The position numbers and the translations under genes were made by a program. DNA of 64,000 nt from Candidatus Levyibacteriota bacterium (GTDB lineage: Bacteria; Patescibacteriota; Microgenomatia; Levybacterales; UBA12049), in assembly GCA_016186625.1 (NCBI GenBank), contig JACPLG010000005.1, positions 36,954 to 100,953 of the forward strand, read 5' to 3'. Of the stretch, positions 21,133 through 58,662 are shown piece after piece. Within the stretch, counting starts at the first letter, position 1, and the number at the start of each line of letters is the position of its first letter. The notes beneath the pieces are model-generated. The model was given only the letters and a program-made list of their open reading frames with translations, made no database searches and was not told the DNA's origin.

Positions 21133-22896
21133 ATGAAAAAGTGGGATTTACTAAATAAAAAATCATCTCTTCGACAAACTCAGGACAAGAAAATAAAATC
21201 TAAAAAATTGGATACGGATAAATTGGTTCGAATCCTCCTTAAAAATCGAGGGATTAAAACAAAAAAAGAAGCCCAAGAGTTTTTGAGCCTAAAACTGGAA
21301 AGTTTGGATATTAATAAACTTGGGATAGACAAAAAGGACTTGAATAAAACTTTAAAAAGAATAAAAACCGCAATTGAGAAAAAAGAGCAAATAATTATTT
21401 TTGGCGACTATGATGCGGATGGGATATGTGGCACTGCAATTCTCTGGGAGACTCTGCATAGTCTTGGGGCCAATGTGTTGCCTTATATTCCCAACAGGAT
21501 TGAGGAAGGATACGGTTTATCCCTTGCGGGAATATCAAATTTAAAAAATAAAATATCAAATATAAAATTGGTGATAACAGTGGACAATGGGATTGTGGCA
21601 AATGACGCTGTTGAGTTTGCAAAAAGTTTAGACATCGATGTAATCATCACCGACCACCACGTACCTTCTAAAACTTTGCCCAAAGCTTTTGCAATTGTAC
21701 ACTCAACAAAAGTCTGCGGAGCGGGTGTGGCCTGGTTTCTCTCTCAAGAGATCGTTCGGGGTCCTGTCTCGCTTCACCCCCGCCCGACATCCTCATCCGC
21801 CAGCGGGCGGACTGCGGGTGCTCGTCGGGGGTCCCCCGCGCTCACCACCCCTCACCCCGATCACCTTGATCTCGTAGCGATTGCAACAGTTGCGGATTTA
21901 GTCCCGCTTGTTGGCCCAAATAGAATTCTTGTTAAGTTTGGGCTAGAAGAGCTTAAAAATACGAAAAGAGTTGGTTTGCAAGCGCTATATGATGAGGCAA
22001 GAATTGAAAGAGATAATATAGATACTTATACGATTGGACATATTGTTGCTCCAAGATTAAATGCTATGGGCAGGCTTGAAGAGGCAATGGACAGTCTTAG
22101 GCTTATTTGCACAAGAGACAAAAAAAGGGCAAATGTTTTGGCTAAGAAATTAGGAGAGATAAATAGAGTAAGACAGCGCCTCACAATTGATACTTTTATC
22201 CATGCCAGAGAGAGAGCCAACAAAAATACTCTCAAAAAACTACTTTTTGTTTATCATGAGTCTTATGAGCAAGGTGTGATTGGGTTGGTGGCTGGGAGAC
22301 TAACAGAGGAATATTATCTCCCATCAATAGTACTTTCAAAGGGAGAAAAGTTTAGTAAAGCTTCTGCTCGTTCTGTCTCGGGGCTAAACATAATAGAGTT
22401 TATAAGGGAAGCCGGAGAGTTTCTGGTTGATGCCGGGGGACACCCTATGGCTGCGGGTTTTACTATTGAGACAACAAAAATTCCACTTCTTGAAAAGAAA
22501 TTCGAAGAGCTTTCCAGGAGATTAATTTCAGACGACCATTTGGTCAGAAGACTAAAAATTGATTGCGAATTGCCTGTTTCTTATTTAACACTTGAATTAT
22601 TCGATTCGATATCGAAATTAGAACCATTTGGCATGAAAAACCCAACACCTGTTTTTTTAAGCAAAGGTTTGGAAATCACTGATATGCGATTAGTGGGAAT
22701 AGACGCAAAACATCTTAAATTAAAAATAAAAGATCAAATCTCAAATCTAACCATTGATGGGATTATTTTTAATTATGATAGTTCGATTGGTTTAAAGATC
22801 GGGGATAAAGTAGATGTTGTTTATTCAATAGAGATGAATGAATGGAACGGAAACAAGAAATTAGAACTTAAGATAAAAGATATTAAAAGTTCCTAG
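21133..22896 (+). CDS. recJ: single-stranded-DNA-specific exonuclease RecJ (DHH/DHHA1)
   Basis: IIFGDYDADGICGTAIL, VITDHH, LDLVAIATVADLVPL and a GGHPMAAG DHHA1 motif. Contains an in-frame GC-rich insert (see the repeat at 21755-21866). Confidence 0.85.
   Translation: MKKWDLLNKKSSLRQTQDKKIKSKKLDTDKLVRILLKNRGIKTKKEAQEFLSLKLESLDINKLGIDKKDLNKTLKRIKTAIEKKEQIIIFGDYDADGICGTAILWETLHSLGANVLPYIPNRIEEGYGLSLAGISNLKNKISNIKLVITVDNGIVANDAVEFAKSLDIDVIITDHHVPSKTLPKAFAIVHSTKVCGAGVAWFLSQEIVRGPVSLHPRPTSSSASGRTAGARRGSPALTTPHPDHLDLVAIATVADLVPLVGPNRILVKFGLEELKNTKRVGLQALYDEARIERDNIDTYTIGHIVAPRLNAMGRLEEAMDSLRLICTRDKKRANVLAKKLGEINRVRQRLTIDTFIHARERANKNTLKKLLFVYHESYEQGVIGLVAGRLTEEYYLPSIVLSKGEKFSKASARSVSGLNIIEFIREAGEFLVDAGGHPMAAGFTIETTKIPLLEKKFEELSRRLISDDHLVRRLKIDCELPVSYLTLELFDSISKLEPFGMKNPTPVFLSKGLEITDMRLVGIDAKHLKLKIKDQISNLTIDGIIFNYDSSIGLKIGDKVDVVYSIEMNEWNGNKKLELKIKDIKSS
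21755..21866 (+). repeat. GC-rich (~70 % GC) ~110-bp element inserted in-frame in recJ; homologous to an intergenic element at 28104-28203
   Basis: Begins TTCGGGGTCCTG, identical for 12 nt to the element at 28104, and ends ...CACCCCTCACC, matching CACCCCTCAAC in the other copy. Has an internal CCGCCCG/CGGGCGG inverted repeat. Encodes the low-complexity peptide RGPVSLHPRPTSSSASGRTAGARRGSPALTTPHPDH. Confidence 0.65.
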
Positions 22897-27031: not shown

Positions 27032-28049
27032 CCGCTGAGACATAAGCAATAAAGTCATTAGCCCCTTCAAACACAATGACCGGAAGCAAATAATCCTGAG
27101 ATCTTCCTTCTACATAAAAACCAAGGTAAACTTTTTTGATGACAATATTTAGGTCTGTCCCTTCATAGGAGGCTATATAAGCTTCCCCTTTTCTTAAGTC
27201 TTCAAAAGCTTCCTGGGCAGTTTTAATAGGATAAGCTGCACCTTCATCTAACACTTTCTGATAAAAGAATCTTGCATTAACTATTTGAGGGCCCGATTCC
27301 CCTCTCGCAACCACCAAATTCATGACAGAGGCATTTCCGTTAGGATAGACAATCACTATATCATCTATGTCTTTCTGGAAAAAATATACACTAATAAGCT
27401 TTGCTTTTGAAATGTTTGTTACAGGACCTAAAATCCCATTATTTAAGTCATAAAATTCTGTTCTGGTCTTGCCTTGATCAATATCCTCAGAGAAAAACCC
27501 TAATGTTTGTAAAAAATTTTGGGCAACGCTGATTGCCTCGTTCTCATTCGGGAGATTAACAGCCGAAAGCACCCCAGGATCAGAAAGATATGAGGAATAT
27601 AGATTAAAGGATGACATATTAATATTTAAAACAAGACTTTTAGGAGGTGGCCCAGGAGCTGTGAATCGGTACAAAGATTCGGATAAAGCCTGCGGAGTTG
27701 AGTTAAAGTCAAGCGCTATAGCTTTTTCCATTGTCCGTTGAACAGCTAGAAGATCAGGTCCAGGCTTGTCCATTTTGTAGACATTGGATCTGTCCGGAAA
27801 ACTGGGCAACTCACCTGAAATAGTATCAATTGTAAAAGTGAATTTCTTTTTTATTCCCTCTGGAAAAAAAATCTTAGGCAATTTTCCAAAAGATGCAGTA
27901 GGAGCGGGCGGGGGTGTTGGAGAAACTGCCTCTTTGATAAGAAATATAATTCTTATCAAAATAAATGAGACAACAAGAATTGCTATTATTATTCCGAGCC
28001 ATTTAGCAACAGAGAGGAATTTAGCTCTGAAATTACTTAAAGTAGGCAT
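27006..28049 (-). CDS. hypothetical membrane-anchored extracytoplasmic protein
   Basis: N-terminal TM (WLGIIIAILVVSFILIRIIFLI) followed by a P-rich linker and a soluble domain. I recognise no motif. Confidence 0.35.
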   Translation of the reverse strand: MPTLSNFRAKFLSVAKWLGIIIAILVVSFILIRIIFLIKEAVSPTPPPAPTASFGKLPKIFFPEGIKKKFTFTIDTISGELPSFPDRSNVYKMDKPGPDLLAVQRTMEKAIALDFNSTPQALSESLYRFTAPGPPPKSLVLNINMSSFNLYSSYLSDPGVLSAVNLPNENEAISVAQNFLQTLGFFSEDIDQGKTRTEFYDLNNGILGPVTNISKAKLISVYFFQKDIDDIVIVYPNGNASVMNLVVARGESGPQIVNARFFYQKVLDEGAAYPIKTAQEAFEDLRKGEAYIASYEGTDLNIVIKKVYLGFYVEGRSQDYLLPVIVFEGANDFIAYVSAVKAEWISN

Positions 28050-28103
28050 GTATTGAGTATAAGGCAGTTTTTAGTTACAATGCAAGGTGAGAGGAATGTT
28101 TGT

Positions 28104-28203
28104 TTCGGGGTCCTGCCACTCGTTTCCCTCCCGCCAGTGCTCGTTCACGAAACACTGAGCTCCGCGCTGTCGGGAGCCCTTCCACTCGTGTCACCCCTCA
28201 ACA
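28104..28203 (+). repeat. GC-rich ~100-bp element in the gltX 5' region; second copy of the recJ-inserted element; terminal inverted repeat GTTTGTTtcGGGG...CCCCtcAACAAAC
   Basis: Starts with TTCGGGGTCCTG. Contains a CTCCCG...CGGGAG inverted repeat. Ends ~20 nt before the gltX ATG. Confidence 0.6.
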
Positions 28204-28222
28204 AACAAAATAAAATAATAAT

Positions 28223-29617
28223 ATGGTAAGAACACGGATTGCGCCAAGTCCAACTGGGTTTCCCCATATCGGAACTGTCTATCAGGCGCTTTTTAATTAT
28301 TCTTTTGCTAAAAAAAACAAAGGTTCATTTATAGTTCGTGTTGAAGATACTGATCAAACCCGAATAGTTCCGGGCGCAGAGGAAAAAATATTTGAGGCAC
28401 TGGACTGGTTTGGTTTGCCCGAAGACGAAAGTCCGCGAAAAGGCGGAGATTTTGGGCCATATAGGCAATCTGAACGCCTGGAAATTTACAAGAAATATTT
28501 ATCCGAGCTTATTGAAAAAGGAGGAGCCTATTTTTGTTTTTGTACAAAAGAAAGACTGGATGCGCTGCGGGCAAGCCAGTCTGCGGCTAAGCAGCCCATT
28601 ATGTATGATGGCAACTGTCGCGGACTTTCCTTGGAAGAAGCAAAAAAAAGACTAAGCAATGAACCCCATGTAGCGAGATTGAAAATTCCCCACACCCGGA
28701 AATTAATAACAAGAGATGAAATTAGAGGGGATGTTGAGTTTGACCCGACACTTACTGAAGACTCTATTTTGATGAAATCGGACTTCTTTCCAACATACCA
28801 TTTTGCAGTGGTGGTTGATGATCACTTGATGAAAATAACACACGTTATTAGAGGTGAGGAATGGCTTTCATCTTTGCCAAAACATATTGTTATCTATGAT
28901 TATTTTGGTTGGGAAAAACCTTTGTTTTACCACACGCCCAATCTTAGAAATCCTGACAAGTCCAAGCTTTCCAAGCGTCACGGTCACGCAAATATAGATT
29001 GGTATAGGAAAGAAGGATTTTTACCTGAAGCAATTTTAAATTTCCTCTGCCTTATGGGGTGGAGTTACCCGGACCAGCGGGAAGAATTCGATCTATCGGA
29101 GTTTATTAATCTTTTTGACCCCAAAGATCTCAAACCGGTTGGCCCAATTTTTGACCTTACAAAACTTGAATGGCTCAATGGAGTCTGGATTAGAAATATG
29201 TCAGTCCAAGATTTAAGGAAACGACTTGAAAAATTTTATAAAGATGACAAGGACTTTAGTGTAATTTTTGAAAGCCGTCATATAGATCTTATGATTGGCC
29301 TTGCCCAAAGCAGAATGAAAAAACTTTCAGAGTTTCGAAGTCTTGTCATTGCGCCTCAAAAACAGAGGCAGTTTAGCGAGGAGGAAAAAGAGACAGGCAA
29401 AAAGCTTTTGGGAGTTCTTCAAGAAATAAATCATACCGACTGGAGGGAAGATATAATCCTCAACTATTTAAAGAATTTTAGAGATGAGGAGGGAGTTTCA
29501 ATGAAACTGATTTATTTTCTGATTACCGGCAGGGAACAGGGTCTTCCACTTATCGAAACAATGGTAAAAATTGAAGGAAGGGACCAAATCCTGGAGAATC
29601 TTAAGAAAAGAGTTTAG
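28223..29617 (+). CDS. gltX: glutamate--tRNA ligase
   Basis: MVRTRIAPSPTGFPHIGTVYQALFNY (HIGH-type motif) and KLSKRHG (KMSKS-type). Confidence 0.9.
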   Translation: MVRTRIAPSPTGFPHIGTVYQALFNYSFAKKNKGSFIVRVEDTDQTRIVPGAEEKIFEALDWFGLPEDESPRKGGDFGPYRQSERLEIYKKYLSELIEKGGAYFCFCTKERLDALRASQSAAKQPIMYDGNCRGLSLEEAKKRLSNEPHVARLKIPHTRKLITRDEIRGDVEFDPTLTEDSILMKSDFFPTYHFAVVVDDHLMKITHVIRGEEWLSSLPKHIVIYDYFGWEKPLFYHTPNLRNPDKSKLSKRHGHANIDWYRKEGFLPEAILNFLCLMGWSYPDQREEFDLSEFINLFDPKDLKPVGPIFDLTKLEWLNGVWIRNMSVQDLRKRLEKFYKDDKDFSVIFESRHIDLMIGLAQSRMKKLSEFRSLVIAPQKQRQFSEEEKETGKKLLGVLQEINHTDWREDIILNYLKNFRDEEGVSMKLIYFLITGREQGLPLIETMVKIEGRDQILENLKKRV

Positions 29618-32443: not shown

Positions 32444-32716
32444 TATGAAAATAATAATTTTTGGCAAAAGTAGTGACTTAGAGGATCTTTTAATAATTAT
32501 TGCCTATATCTTGATCCTTATTCTAATAGCTGCTTTAATTTGGATTTTGATTAGCCCGTTCCTTGCAGTTTTAGTCTCAATTCTTGTCTCATATCTTTTT
32601 TATCTTCGGAAAATCATTGGCAGAAAATAGTCTAAAACTGGATTTATTAGCCTCAATAAAAAAATTTGGGCACTTTACGCTTACTCAGAAAAAACAAATT
32701 TGGTATAGTTACACAT

Positions 32717-33901
32717 ATGTTAAAAATCAATGAGCGGTCGCTTGCTCTTCACAAAAAACATCAGGGGAAGATTGCAACTGTTCCCATAGTTCCCATAAAA
32801 ACCAAAGAAGATCTATCACTTGCCTATACTCCGGGTGTTGCTGCGGCAAGCAGTCTGATTGCCAAAAATCCTATGCTTTCTTATGACTATACGTGGAGGG
32901 GGCGGGCTGTTGCTGTGGTGTCTGACGGCTCGGCGGTGTTGGGACTGGGAAACATAGGCCCTGAAGCGGCACTTCCCGTGATGGAGGGCAAGGCGCTGCT
33001 GCTTAAGGAATTTGGCGGGGTGGACGGCGTGCCTCTAGTTATAAACACTCAGGACGCCTCGGAGATTGTCCGGTTTGTTACCCATATTGCTCCGTCTTTT
33101 TCCGGCATTCTTTTGGAAGATATCAGTGCGCCCCGGTGCTTTCAGATAGAAGAAGAACTCTTAGGAATCGGGATACCGGTCTTTCATGATGATCAGCACG
33201 GGTCAGCGATTGCGGTAAGAGCGGCTCTTAAGAATGCGGCGAAGGTAGTGGGAAAGGAGTATGGTAATCTTCGGGTAGTGATTGTCGGCGCGGGAGCGGC
33301 AGGGCTTGCCACCGCCAAGATGCTTCTTGGCTTAACCTGTCAAAGTGATTTTTGTGAGATTATACCGGGAGGGCTACGGGTAAAAGATGCCATCATTGTC
33401 GATAGGGCGGGGGCCCTCTTTCCCGGAAGAGCTGATCAAAATATATATAAGCAGGGATTAGCCAGCGTGTCCAACATCGACCGCAAAAGTGGGACACTTG
33501 CCGAGGTTATTCAAGGCGCAGATGCGCTGATCGGAGTTTCCGGGCCAAACAATATTACGCCTGAGAATATACGACGCATGGCTCCTCACCCAATCGTATT
33601 TGCCATGGCCAACCCCGTACCCGAGATTATGCCCGATGAGGCCAGACGAGCAGGGGCGGCAGTAGTTGCAACAGGAAGGAGCGACGTTCCTAACCAAATC
33701 AATAACGTCCTGGTATTTCCCGGCGTTTTTCGGGCTGTTAAGGAGGGAAGGTTAAAAACTATTACACCGGAGATGAAACTGGCCGCATCAGACGCGTTGG
33801 CAGGATTAGTAACAAAGCCTACAGAAGATCACATTATCCCCGATCCGTTTTTTCCGAGGCTTGCAGAGACCATCGCCCATGCGATGCTAAAAAAGGCATA
33901 A
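32717..33901 (+). CDS. NAD(P)-dependent malic enzyme (short form, no PTA domain); markedly GC-rich relative to its surroundings
   Basis: LAYTPGVAAAS, VVSDGSAVLGLGNIGPEAALPVMEGKALL and VVIVGAGAAGLA motifs. The likely start is the ATG at 32717 (MLKINERSLALHKKHQGKI). Confidence 0.85.
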   Translation: MLKINERSLALHKKHQGKIATVPIVPIKTKEDLSLAYTPGVAAASSLIAKNPMLSYDYTWRGRAVAVVSDGSAVLGLGNIGPEAALPVMEGKALLLKEFGGVDGVPLVINTQDASEIVRFVTHIAPSFSGILLEDISAPRCFQIEEELLGIGIPVFHDDQHGSAIAVRAALKNAAKVVGKEYGNLRVVIVGAGAAGLATAKMLLGLTCQSDFCEIIPGGLRVKDAIIVDRAGALFPGRADQNIYKQGLASVSNIDRKSGTLAEVIQGADALIGVSGPNNITPENIRRMAPHPIVFAMANPVPEIMPDEARRAGAAVVATGRSDVPNQINNVLVFPGVFRAVKEGRLKTITPEMKLAASDALAGLVTKPTEDHIIPDPFFPRLAETIAHAMLKKA

Positions 33902-35739: not shown

Positions 35740-35815
35740 TACGGCTGCCTCCAGACCTGCCTGCCGGCAGGCAGGGGCGGGCAGGCATGGAGCATTGCTT
35801 GGAGGACAAGTTGGT
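35740..35815. promoter_or_regulatory. GC-rich structured segment with a perfect 20-bp palindrome CCTGCCTGCCGGCAGGCAGG (35756-35775) in the divergent sigma/HMG-CoA-reductase intergenic region
   Basis: The palindrome reads directly. Flanking CCTCCAG...CTTGGAGG complementarity extends the hairpin. A TTGACT...TATATT promoter-like pair follows at ~35833-35862. Confidence 0.5.
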
Positions 35816-58421: not shown

Positions 58422-58495
58422 GGCCCCATCGTCTAGTGGTTTAGGATATCTGGTTCTCATCCAGAAGATCAGGGGTTCGAATCCCCTTGGGGCTA
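58422..58495 (+). tRNA. tRNA-Glu (anticodon CUC)
   Basis: GGCCCCA-TC-GTC-TAGTGGTTTAG-GAT-A-TCTGG-TTCTCAT-CCAGA-AGATC-AGGGG-TTCGAAT-CCCCT-TGGGGCT-A, 74 nt. Close to E. coli tRNA-Glu. No encoded CCA. Confidence 0.75.
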
Positions 58496-58499
58496 CAGA

Positions 58500-58614
58500 G
58501 GCCAAGCGGGCAGGTCTAGTGGTTCAGGACATCGGGTTCCCCGCCAGCAACGCTTTGCGTAGCAATTTTCGGGCTGGTCATCCCGAAAATCACGGGTTCG
58601 ACTCCCGTTGGCGG
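58500..58614 (+). ncRNA. tRNA-like element of unresolved structure (canonical D-arm and T-arm/3' acceptor; ~35-40 extra nt in the anticodon region; no complementary 5' acceptor strand found)
   Basis: GTCTAGTGGTTCAGGAC duplicates the tRNA-Glu D-arm. ACGGG-TTCGACT-CCCGT-TGGCGGT-A is a canonical T-arm plus acceptor 3' strand. TCGGG...CCCGA could form an anticodon stem bracketing a 44-nt insert. Confidence 0.3.
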
Positions 58615-58662
58615 TACGCCTCGTCAAACTCTTCAGGGTGAGCTTCAGATTTAACTCAGCAC

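What the first reader, a model, noticed from the sequence alone, without database searches (positions are those of the whole stretch)
28104..28203. GC-rich structured element with terminal inverted repeats immediately upstream of gltX
This is 100 bp of high GC ending ~20 nt before the GluRS start codon. Its termini GTTTGTTtcGGGG and CCCCtcAACAAAC are inverted (11 of 13 positions), and an internal CTCCCG...CGGGAG pair is present. It is the intergenic member of the family seen inside recJ. Its position in an aminoacyl-tRNA synthetase leader raises the possibility of a cis-regulatory RNA, but no T-box specifier or antiterminator consensus is visible.
Basis: seen in the sequence. Interest (0 to 1): 0.55.

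Follow-up and report, generated by a model that had tools for sequence, protein, structure and literature searches.

The report
Hairpin repeat inserted before gltX
The GC-rich hairpin in front of the glutamyl-tRNA synthetase gene is not a gltX regulator. It is one copy of an apparently undescribed selfish palindromic DNA repeat that has spread through tiny Patescibacteria genomes, mostly landing in frame inside essential genes.

Summary
Window 28098-28206 is a 109-nt, 61% GC imperfect hairpin in a 38% GC Levybacteria genome. It ends 16 nt before the gltX ATG.

A covariance model built from relatives finds exactly two copies in the window:
- this one (110 bits);
- the in-frame one inside recJ (21747-21862, E 5e-7).

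The family occurs in at least 51 public assemblies, mostly Levy-, Roizman- and Curtissbacteria, with a diverged form in Aminicenantes. It has an almost invariant core, covarying stems and a variable apical hairpin. About two thirds of parsed copies lie inside long ORFs. All 32 sense copies use one frame (GP[VA]..FPPASA..RAVGSPS).

At about 40 of 53 orthologous gltX loci the ATG follows the conserved -10 box by 2-10 nt, so the ancestral mRNA is leaderless. Only four other loci carry a family member there.

The element is therefore an RPE-like mobile insertion, not an aminoacyl-tRNA synthetase leader. It has no Rfam match, and I found no parent IS and no paper describing it.

One feature is unexplained: young copies are flanked by copy-specific inverted repeats of 6-12 bp, not direct repeats.

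The parts
28053..28081 (+). Conserved sigma-70-type gltX promoter (-35 TTGAGT, 17-nt spacer, -10 TACAAT). It is not part of the element but defines its context.
   Evidence: Promoter scan. The same TTGAGT-17-TACAATGCAA block was found in 49 metagenome loci plus L002, L003 and L107, each followed by a GluRS start.
28098..28104 (+). Left copy-specific outer arm GTTTGTT. It pairs with 28200-28206.
   Evidence: The outer arms differ from copy to copy within the family.
28105..28199 (+). Core of the palindromic element: TC-GGGGTCCTG...CACCCC-TC. P1 is GGGGT/ACCCC. P2 is a weak CAC/GTG here. P3 is CTCCCG 28128-28133 with CGGGAG 28171-28176, plus CAGTGC 28135-28140 with GCGCTG 28164-28169, which includes an invariant T.G pair. 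The variable apical hairpin is about 28141-28163.
   Evidence: Fold, family alignment and covariation, covariance-model hit 28096-28208 at 110.5 bits.
28200..28206 (+). Right copy-specific outer arm AACAAAC.
28207..28222 (+). A/T-only spacer AAAATAAAATAATAAT between the element and the ATG. It is predicted to be unpaired and is absent from empty orthologous sites.
28188..28216 (+). Candidate secondary promoter: GTGTCA (3' end of the element), 17-nt spacer, TAAAAT (in the A/T spacer). It would place a transcription start at the ATG. This is a consensus match only.
   Evidence: 9 of 12 matches. Five such sites were found in this 400-nt stretch against 0.8 expected.
28223..29617 (+). gltX (GluRS, 464 aa), the gene downstream of the insertion.
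   Evidence: ORF list, Pfam tRNA-synt_1c on the identical product.
21747..21862 (+). Second family member (subfamily 2, 75% GC), in frame inside recJ. It encodes residues about 210-240 (GPVSLHPRPTSSSASGRTAGARRGSPALTTP).
   Evidence: Solved RecJ 8y30 aligns to residues 24-209 and 241-585 and skips the insert. The closest RecJ homologues lack it.

Best explanation
The element is one copy of a short (about 80-125 nt core), non-coding, GC-rich palindromic repeat that multiplies as DNA in Patescibacteria genomes, chiefly the Levy-, Roizman- and Curtissbacteria lineages.

Shown:
- Each copy folds into a long imperfect hairpin. It has nearly invariant blocks (GGGTCCTG; TTTCCCTCCCGCCAGTGCTC; GCGCGCTGTCGGGAGCCCTTCC; CACCC), conserved mismatches and bulges, two covarying stems, and an apical hairpin of variable length.
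- Copies sit in either orientation.
- Most lie inside housekeeping genes, in variable segments flanked by conserved blocks, and keep the reading frame open.

Inferred:
- In-gene copies are simply translated as Gly/Pro/Ser/Ala-rich loops, as with Rickettsia palindromic elements.
- In this genome one copy landed between the conserved gltX promoter and the start codon of what was ancestrally a leaderless gltX mRNA.
- The insertion either gives gltX a roughly 135-nt 5' UTR that begins with a self-contained stable hairpin and leaves the A/U-rich start region unpaired, or transcription now starts from a new promoter made of the element's 3' end plus the A/T spacer.
- Any effect on gltX is a by-product, not amino-acid- or tRNA-responsive control.
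- The conserved structure with fixed mismatches suggests that a folded single strand is what the unknown mobilising machinery recognises.
- The copy-specific inverted flanks are probably made at or soon after insertion, by fold-back (template-switch) synthesis on the hairpin.
For: Family and structure:
83 loci from 51 assemblies carry full copies.
- The model finds 101 copies in 0.75 Mb of fetched loci, and exactly 2 in the window.
- In the P2 stem, 6 of 7 pairs show compensatory changes and 93% of cells are paired. The whole structure is 83.5% paired against 37-45% when the partners are slid.

Mobility:
- One Roizmanbacteria MAG (JACOYT01) has 11 of the fetched loci carrying copies; the cores I compared among them (L007, L015, L055) are identical or differ by 2 nt, and they sit in unrelated genes.
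- The window's gltX copy is 94.6% identical to a copy in a different gene of another MAG and 87% identical to the recJ copy of L002. Housekeeping genes of those relatives are only 66-79% identical at the nucleotide level.
- Three independent assemblies of this species all break inside the element.

Coding-region behaviour:
- 48 of 70 parsed copies lie in long ORFs: 32 sense, all in one frame, and 16 antisense.
- Core lengths of 80, 89, 98, 107 and 116 nt are all 2 mod 3.
- The same variable segments (between conserved blocks) of RecJ, CarA, CarB, TopA and a GT39 protein are hit in several species.
- The RecJ insert falls where a solved RecJ has a 1-residue junction.

Not a gltX leader:
- About 40 of 53 orthologous loci have the ATG 2-10 nt after TACAATGCAA. 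The element is present only in the window, L137, L107 (L165 has an identical leader) and L121. Unrelated hairpin repeats occupy the same junction in L003/L125/L150 and L133/L166.
- There is no Rfam hit.
- In the fold of the putative leader the AUG region is unpaired.
Against: - No transposase or full-length parent element was found next to copies.
- No direct target-site duplication was found.
- No empty and filled sites from closely related strains were available, so mobility is inferred from distribution, not seen.
- The core is so conserved across species, and across phyla in the Aminicenantes form, that selection for a cellular function or continual gene conversion cannot be excluded.
- Part of that conservation comes from how copies were found. 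The scan required 20 exact bases of the 5' half. The 3' half was not part of the scan pattern, but I kept only parsed copies with at most 5 mismatches in its 22-nt block, so neither half is a fully unbiased sample.
- Family members occur at the same gltX junction in four other loci. That could mean an old, retained insertion there.
- There are no transcript data, so whether the element is in the gltX mRNA is unknown.
Confidence: 0.8

Rival explanations
1. It is a dedicated cis-regulatory leader RNA of gltX, such as a riboswitch, a T-box-like sensor or an attenuator.
For: - It lies between a conserved promoter and the gltX start, on the sense strand.
- It folds stably.
- Family members occupy the same junction in four other loci.
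Against: - It is absent from about 40 of 53 orthologous loci, which are leaderless.
- The same sequence occurs inside recJ, carA, carB, topA and many other genes, in both orientations.
- There is no terminator-like site.
- The predicted fold leaves the start region open, and no alternative structure was seen.
- No T-box or any other Rfam family matches, even at E <= 10.
Confidence: 0.03
2. It is a domesticated, host-beneficial structural module kept by selection rather than a selfish repeat. Possible roles are a binding site for a nucleoid or RNA-binding protein, an mRNA 5' stabiliser, or a replication or recombination signal.
For: - The core blocks are nearly invariant across species whose housekeeping genes are only 66-79% identical.
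- Mismatches and bulges are conserved, including an invariant T.G pair.
- Copies at orthologous positions persist in several species.
- A homologous core is found in a distant phylum, Aminicenantes.
Against: - Occurrence is patchy even at the hot spots. The nearest RecJ and gltX relatives lack it.
- Both orientations occur.
- Decayed copies exist among RecJ homologues.
- Unrelated repeat families occupy the same sites, which fits tolerance rather than need.
- Part of the conservation reflects how copies were found.
Confidence: 0.12
3. In-gene copies are removed or skipped, by an intron-like excision or by translational bypassing, rather than translated. The gltX copy would then be a stray member of such a class.
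For: - The hairpin brings its two flanks together.
- From my own knowledge: GC-rich mobile inserts in yeast mitochondrial genes are bypassed by ribosomes.
- CPR genomes are rich in introns (abstract of 10.1101/2025.07.03.662931, listed).
Against: - All 32 sense in-gene copies keep one open frame, although the other two frames are also free of stops in many copies.
- Core lengths fall in classes that differ by multiples of 3.
- No ribozyme or intron family matches.
- Antisense copies are also kept in open frames.
Confidence: 0.03

Closest known systems
Rickettsia palindromic elements (RPE)
   Same: Both are short palindromic non-coding repeats in reduced, AT-rich genomes. Both insert frequently inside protein-coding genes in frame, are translated as extra peptide segments, and also occur intergenically (RPE properties as summarised in PMC10969869).
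   Different: - I saw no resemblance to RPE sequences as I recall them; no RPE sequence was compared.
- The host phylum is different.
- This element is strongly GC-rich against an AT-rich background.
- It has a highly conserved core with covarying stems.
- Young copies carry copy-specific inverted flanks.
Bacterial MITEs (Correia, ERIC, BOX, Nezha and others)
   Same: They are small, non-autonomous, multi-copy and hairpin-forming, and they can be co-transcribed with neighbouring genes and alter mRNA stability or promoters.
   Different: MITEs are defined by terminal inverted repeats matching a parent IS and by direct target-site duplications. Here no parent IS was found. The conserved parts are internal. 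The outermost arms vary from copy to copy and are inverted, not direct.
GC clusters of yeast mitochondrial genomes (from my own knowledge, not tested here)
   Same: They are GC-rich palindromic mobile clusters scattered in a very AT-rich genome, sometimes inside coding sequence.
   Different: They are organellar and eukaryotic, shorter (about 30-50 bp), and unrelated in sequence. Their flanks are AT-rich direct repeats.
REP/REPIN elements and integron attC sites, which are recognised as folded single strands
   Same: In both, structure is conserved more than sequence in parts of the hairpin. Both have fixed extrahelical bases or mismatches and a variable apical region. This is the design expected when a protein reads a folded single strand.
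   Different: - No GTAG/CGTC tag was consistent across copies, and I noticed no RAYT-like or integrase gene among the recurrent neighbouring ORFs (those ORFs were not annotated).
- attC conserves the outer R boxes (GTTRRRY) and varies inside. This family does the opposite.
- REPs are extragenic, whereas this family is mostly intragenic.

Membership tests
T-box leader or other aminoacyl-tRNA synthetase leader RNA | Match to the T-box covariance model (specifier loop, T-box sequence, terminator/antiterminator) | tested here: not met
   No Rfam match at gathering score or at E <= 10 on 27900-28400. No terminator-like site.
T-box leader or other aminoacyl-tRNA synthetase leader RNA | Conserved upstream of the orthologous gene | tested here: not met
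   About 40 of 53 orthologous gltX loci have no leader at all. The element is present in the window and 4 other loci, two of them with identical leaders.
Any curated RNA family (Rfam 15) | Score at or above the family threshold | tested here: not met
   Only tRNAs are found in the window. The best hits on the element are chance-level frameshift-site models at 15-16 bits.
MITE | Multi-copy, short, no coding capacity of its own | tested here: met
   101 model hits in the fetched loci. 11 fetched loci of one MAG carry copies, and the cores compared are identical or differ by 2 nt.
MITE | Direct target-site duplication flanking each copy | tested here: not met
   No direct repeat was found beyond what the family consensus explains. 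Instead, inverted flanks of at least 6 bp occur in 15 of 69 copies against 0.19 expected.
MITE | Terminal inverted repeats shared with a full-length parent IS that encodes a transposase | tested here: inconclusive
   No separated 5' and 3' halves flanking an ORF were found, and no recurrent neighbouring ORF other than housekeeping synteny groups. Only about 0.75 Mb around copies was examined.
Rickettsia palindromic elements | Palindromic repeat inserted in frame within ORFs and compatible with protein function | tested here: met
   48 of 70 copies lie in long ORFs with the frame kept open. The RecJ insert lies between conserved blocks of a solved RecJ.
Rickettsia palindromic elements | Sequence homology to the described RPE families | not tested
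The host phylum and base composition differ. I file this as working like an RPE, not as a member.
Integron attC site | Conserved outer R''/R' boxes (RYYYAAC / GTTRRRY) with a variable interior | tested here: not met
   The outer arms differ between copies and the interior is conserved. No attC model hit.
Intrinsic terminator | GC-rich hairpin followed by a T run, at a gene's 3' end | tested here: not met
   No terminator-like site was found in 27900-28300. The element lies between two divergently transcribed genes.

The most novel reading that the evidence does not exclude
The family spreads by a hairpin-templated route that has not been described. A folded single strand is inserted and its 3' end is extended on the neighbouring flank, or a flank is captured and filled in. 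This leaves an inverted rather than direct duplication of 6-12 bp. No dedicated transposase sits next to the copies. The conserved core with fixed mismatches would be the recognition module, shared between Patescibacteria and Aminicenantes. If so, this is a new class of prokaryotic mobile DNA that remodels essential proteins in the smallest known genomes.
Probability: 0.2. Interest if true: 0.8.

Novelty: new variant of a known kind. Interest (0 to 1): 0.6.

Why it matters
- **Mobile DNA in minimal genomes.** Genomes of about 1 Mb with few recognisable mobile elements would carry an active selfish repeat. It repeatedly adds loops of about 30 residues to RecJ, CarA/CarB, topoisomerase I, GT39 and other core proteins. 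This would be a second, independent case of the RPE phenomenon.
- **Practical consequences.** The repeat breaks short-read assemblies of these organisms. It inflates and confuses protein families. It can also be mistaken for a regulatory RNA, as happened here.
- **Mechanism.** The copy-specific inverted flanks and the structure-conserving core point to an insertion mechanism that does not fit standard transposition.
- **gltX.** The gltX junction shows how a leaderless gene acquires a leader.

Tried and rejected
- **Rfam** at gathering and at E <= 10: nothing.
- **Pfam** on the element-encoded peptides: nothing.
- **HMMER search** of the 33-aa translated element against 1.8 billion representative proteins: only 5 hits. 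The query is too short to measure prevalence.
- **IMG/VR scan** for the element pattern: 0 hits, so no sign of a phage vector.
- **Parent IS.** I looked for 5' and 3' halves separated by an ORF and for recurrent neighbouring ORFs. I found only complete short hairpins and housekeeping synteny.
- **Direct target-site duplications:** none beyond the family consensus.
- **Insertion boundaries.** I tried to fix them, and the origin of the inverted flanks, from homologues lacking the insert (RecJ, GT39, CarB and others). The nearest homologues are only 50-66% identical and the loops are hypervariable, so this was inconclusive.
- **Strain-level empty site.** Three other assemblies of the same species all contain the element and break in it.
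- **Cross-domain or cross-phylum spread from MAG titles.** The 'Nanoarchaeia' contig encodes RecO and other genes with bacterial-type family matches. At least four of the 'Gammaproteobacteria'-titled contigs share synteny groups with Levy- or Curtissbacteria loci. I treat all such titles as probably wrong.
- **Literature.** Five full-text searches found no description of such an element in CPR bacteria.

Full report
**What is there**

The window is a 38.5% GC stretch of a Candidatus Levybacteria (Patescibacteria) genome. Between a minus-strand gene that starts at 28049 and gltX (ATG at 28223) lies a 109-nt segment, 28098-28206, with 61% GC.

Its ends, GTTTGTT-TC-GGGG and CCCC-TC-AACAAAC, are complementary at 11 of 13 positions. 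The internal CTCCCG/CGGGAG pair is at 28128-28133 and 28171-28176.

As RNA the plus strand folds into one long imperfect hairpin: -41.6 kcal/mol, z = -3.85, and none of 200 shuffles is as stable. The minus strand and both DNA strands fold likewise but less distinctly.

The gap to the ATG is 16 nt.

**It is a repeat family, not a unique leader**

The only other comparably GC-rich hairpin in the window lies in frame inside recJ (21747-21862, 75% GC). It shares TTCGGGGTCCTG, C(T/C)CCCGCC, CGGG(A/G)G and CACCCCTCA with the gltX copy.

Translated in one frame, the gltX copy reads RGPATRFPPASARSRNTELRAVGSPSTRVTPQQ. About 20 of 120 Levybacteria RecJ homologues carry this peptide at exactly the recJ insertion point; the closest homologues lack it.

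The RecJ inserts of two other species (L002, L003) are nearly identical in DNA to the window's gltX copy.

Hits in high-GC genomes lack the 3' half and are chance. 83 loci from 51 assemblies carry whole copies.

Several assemblies have titles that look wrong:
- At least four of the contigs titled 'uncultured Gammaproteobacteria' share synteny groups with Levy- or Curtissbacteria loci; I did not check the other assemblies with that title.
- The 'Nanoarchaeia' contig encodes RecO and other genes with bacterial-type family matches.

I therefore treat the family as Patescibacterial. A diverged but recognisable form (subfamily 2, the type in the window's recJ) is multi-copy in Aminicenantes genomes, including a 4-Mb record titled 'chromosome: 1'.

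**Anatomy**

The consensus, from outside to inside, is:
- a copy-specific outer arm;
- (GAC or CTC)GGGTCCTG;
- a 5-7 bp variable stem (P2);
- TTTCCCTCCCGCCAGTGCTC;
- an apical hairpin of 17 to about 70 nt;
- TGCGCGCTGTCGGGAGCCCTTCC;
- the complement of P2;
- G-Y-CACCC(GTC or TCG), then the complementary outer arm.

On 25 copies, 6 of 7 P2 pairs show compensatory changes and 93% of cells are paired. Two P3 pairs also covary. The whole structure is 83.5% paired, against 37-45% when partners are slid by 1-3 columns.

Fixed irregularities are conserved:
- a 3-nt bulge after GGG;
- a pyrimidine-rich internal loop;
- an invariant T.G pair;
- a C/T mismatch or wobble whose two sides swap together.

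A covariance model (R1) finds exactly two hits in the window: 110.5 bits, and 33.4 bits at E 5e-7. It finds 101 hits in 0.75 Mb of fetched loci, including copies the pattern had missed.

**Evidence that it multiplies as DNA**

- One Roizmanbacteria MAG has 11 of the fetched loci carrying copies. The cores I compared among them are identical (L007, L055) or differ by 2 nt in the apical loop (L015). The copies sit in unrelated genes.
- The window's gltX copy is 94.6% identical to a copy in a different gene of another MAG. It is 88% identical to the gltX-junction copy of L137 and 87% to the recJ copy of L002.
- The window's recJ copy is 85-87% identical to copies in L004 and L121.
- Housekeeping genes of these relatives are only 66-79% identical in DNA.
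- Three independent short-read assemblies of this very species break inside the element at the shared CCCTCCCGCC block, as expected for a repeat.
- I found no neighbouring transposase, no full-length parent element and no copy in viral contigs.

**Behaviour in genes**

Of 70 fully parsed copies, 48 lie inside long ORFs with at least 30 codons on each side.
- 32 are sense, and all use the same frame, which gives a Gly/Pro/Ser/Ala-rich peptide. The other two frames are also free of stops in many copies.
- 16 are antisense.

Core lengths cluster at 80, 89, 98, 107 and 116 nt, all 2 mod 3.

The same variable segments, flanked by conserved blocks, are hit in several species: the RecJ linker, CarA, CarB, topoisomerase I, a RadA-like protein (my reading of the alignment, not confirmed by a family search) and a GT39 glycosyltransferase. 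These sites often also carry unrelated repeat-derived peptides.

A solved RecJ (8y30) aligns to residues 24-209 and 241-585 of the window's RecJ. The 31 element-encoded residues therefore replace a one-residue junction.

This is the behaviour described for Rickettsia palindromic elements (PMC10969869). Five literature searches found nothing equivalent for CPR bacteria.

**The gltX context**

Upstream of the element is a promoter-like block (TTGAGT, 17 nt, TACAAT, then GCAA; 28053-28085). It is conserved enough to retrieve 49 orthologous loci from metagenomes.

In about 40 of 53 loci the GluRS start codon follows TACAATGCAA by 2-10 nt. By ordinary promoter geometry this puts the transcription start at or next to the ATG, so the ancestral gltX mRNA is leaderless. 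This is an inference.

A family member sits at this junction in the following loci:
- the window (subfamily 1);
- L137 (subfamily 1);
- L107, with L165 carrying an identical leader (subfamily 1 with a longer apical hairpin);
- L121 (subfamily 2).

Unrelated small hairpin repeats sit there in L003/L125/L150 and L133/L166. The closest relative with usable sequence (L122, 78-80% DNA identity) has an empty site.

So the junction is a tolerated insertion hot spot, and the element is not a conserved leader.

In the window, transcription from the conserved promoter would give a roughly 135-nt leader. Its hairpin is self-contained and leaves the 16-nt A/U spacer and the AUG unpaired. Alternatively, a consensus-level promoter (GTGTCA, 17 nt, TAAAAT; 28188-28216) would restore a start at the ATG. 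It is built from the element's 3' end and the A/T spacer. I cannot decide between these without transcript data.

**The unexplained feature**

Copies are not flanked by direct repeats. Instead, 15 of 69 copies have perfect inverted flanks of at least 6 bp (0.19 expected from mismatched left and right flanks). 12 have at least 8 bp (0.035 expected). The sequences differ from copy to copy, for example GAATTGTTGAC|GTCAACAATTC, TACAATGTGAC|GTCACATTGTA, and the window's GTTTGTT|AACAAAC.

Many of the longest (10-12 bp) arms belong to copies in the Roizmanbacteria MAG whose cores are near-identical, which I take to be the youngest copies. Most other copies have short arms or none. This suggests the arms arise at or soon after insertion and then decay.

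Empty orthologous gltX sites contain neither arm. Perfect 20-bp palindromes should also be rare as targets inside conserved protein genes (an expectation I did not test). Insertion into pre-existing palindromes therefore seems unlikely.

Within one genome the innermost bases of the arms are shared (GAC, TGAC, GTGAC) while the outer bases differ.

I favour fold-back or template-switch synthesis on the hairpin, the known route that perfects quasi-palindromes (from my own knowledge). This is inference. The attempts to settle it with homologues lacking the insert failed, because the nearest ones are too distant.

**Verdict**

The finding is real, but it is an RPE-like mobile palindromic repeat, apparently undescribed, and not a gltX regulatory RNA. 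I rate it moderately high. The family is widespread, strikingly conserved in structure, and remodels essential proteins in minimal genomes. Its inverted flanks do not fit standard transposition.

Noticed in passing
window 58506-58616 (+): A tRNA-like gene directly after tRNA-Glu (58422-58496) carries an insertion of about 42 nt in the anticodon loop. Rfam's tRNA model scores it 32.3 bits, but ARAGORN does not call it. The insertion is too short for the group I introns reported in Patescibacteria tRNA genes.
   Followed up: partly
window 35756-35775: A perfect 20-bp palindrome, CCTGCCTGCCGGCAGGCAGG, sits in a small GC island. The same palindrome is nested inside the L019 copy of the element. 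This suggests another small GC-rich palindromic repeat family in these genomes.
   Followed up: partly
RecJ, GT39 and CarB homologues (P0001-P0240; L020, L073, L086, L100, L112): The same protein loops carry several other repeat-derived peptides in different species: ISNFKFQISNK..., VILNLFQDL...LKQVQHD......FASAQDDK and IPAFAGMT. Some of these are the two translated arms of a palindrome.
   Followed up: no
L003 15990-16060; L125, L150, L133, L166 (gltX promoter-ATG junction): Unrelated small hairpin repeats occupy the same junction as the element in other Levybacteria, for example GAAGCATcgttATGCTTC and AGACGCACCgaatGGTGCGTCT.
   Followed up: no
window 28053-28085 and 49 metagenome loci (L121-L169): A strongly conserved promoter block (TTGAGT, 17 nt, TACAATGCAA) is followed within 2-10 nt by the gltX ATG in most Levybacteria. 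This implies a leaderless gltX mRNA.
   Followed up: yes
L001 1-94; L170 and L171 1-40; L032, L033 and L108 contig ends: Short-read contigs end inside copies of the element. The repeat is therefore a recurrent cause of assembly breaks in these MAGs.
   Followed up: partly
L009, L014, L016, L020 and other 'uncultured Gammaproteobacteria' titles; L040 ('Nanoarchaeia'): The public titles of these MAGs look wrong. At least four of the Gammaproteobacteria-titled contigs share synteny groups with Levy- or Curtissbacteria loci. L040 encodes RecO and other genes with bacterial-type family matches.
   Followed up: partly
window 32666-33901 (+): An ORF I take to be a malic enzyme (from its translation; not confirmed by a family search) has GC up to 0.66 in 80-nt windows, against a window mean of 0.385. 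This may indicate a horizontally acquired gene.
   Followed up: no
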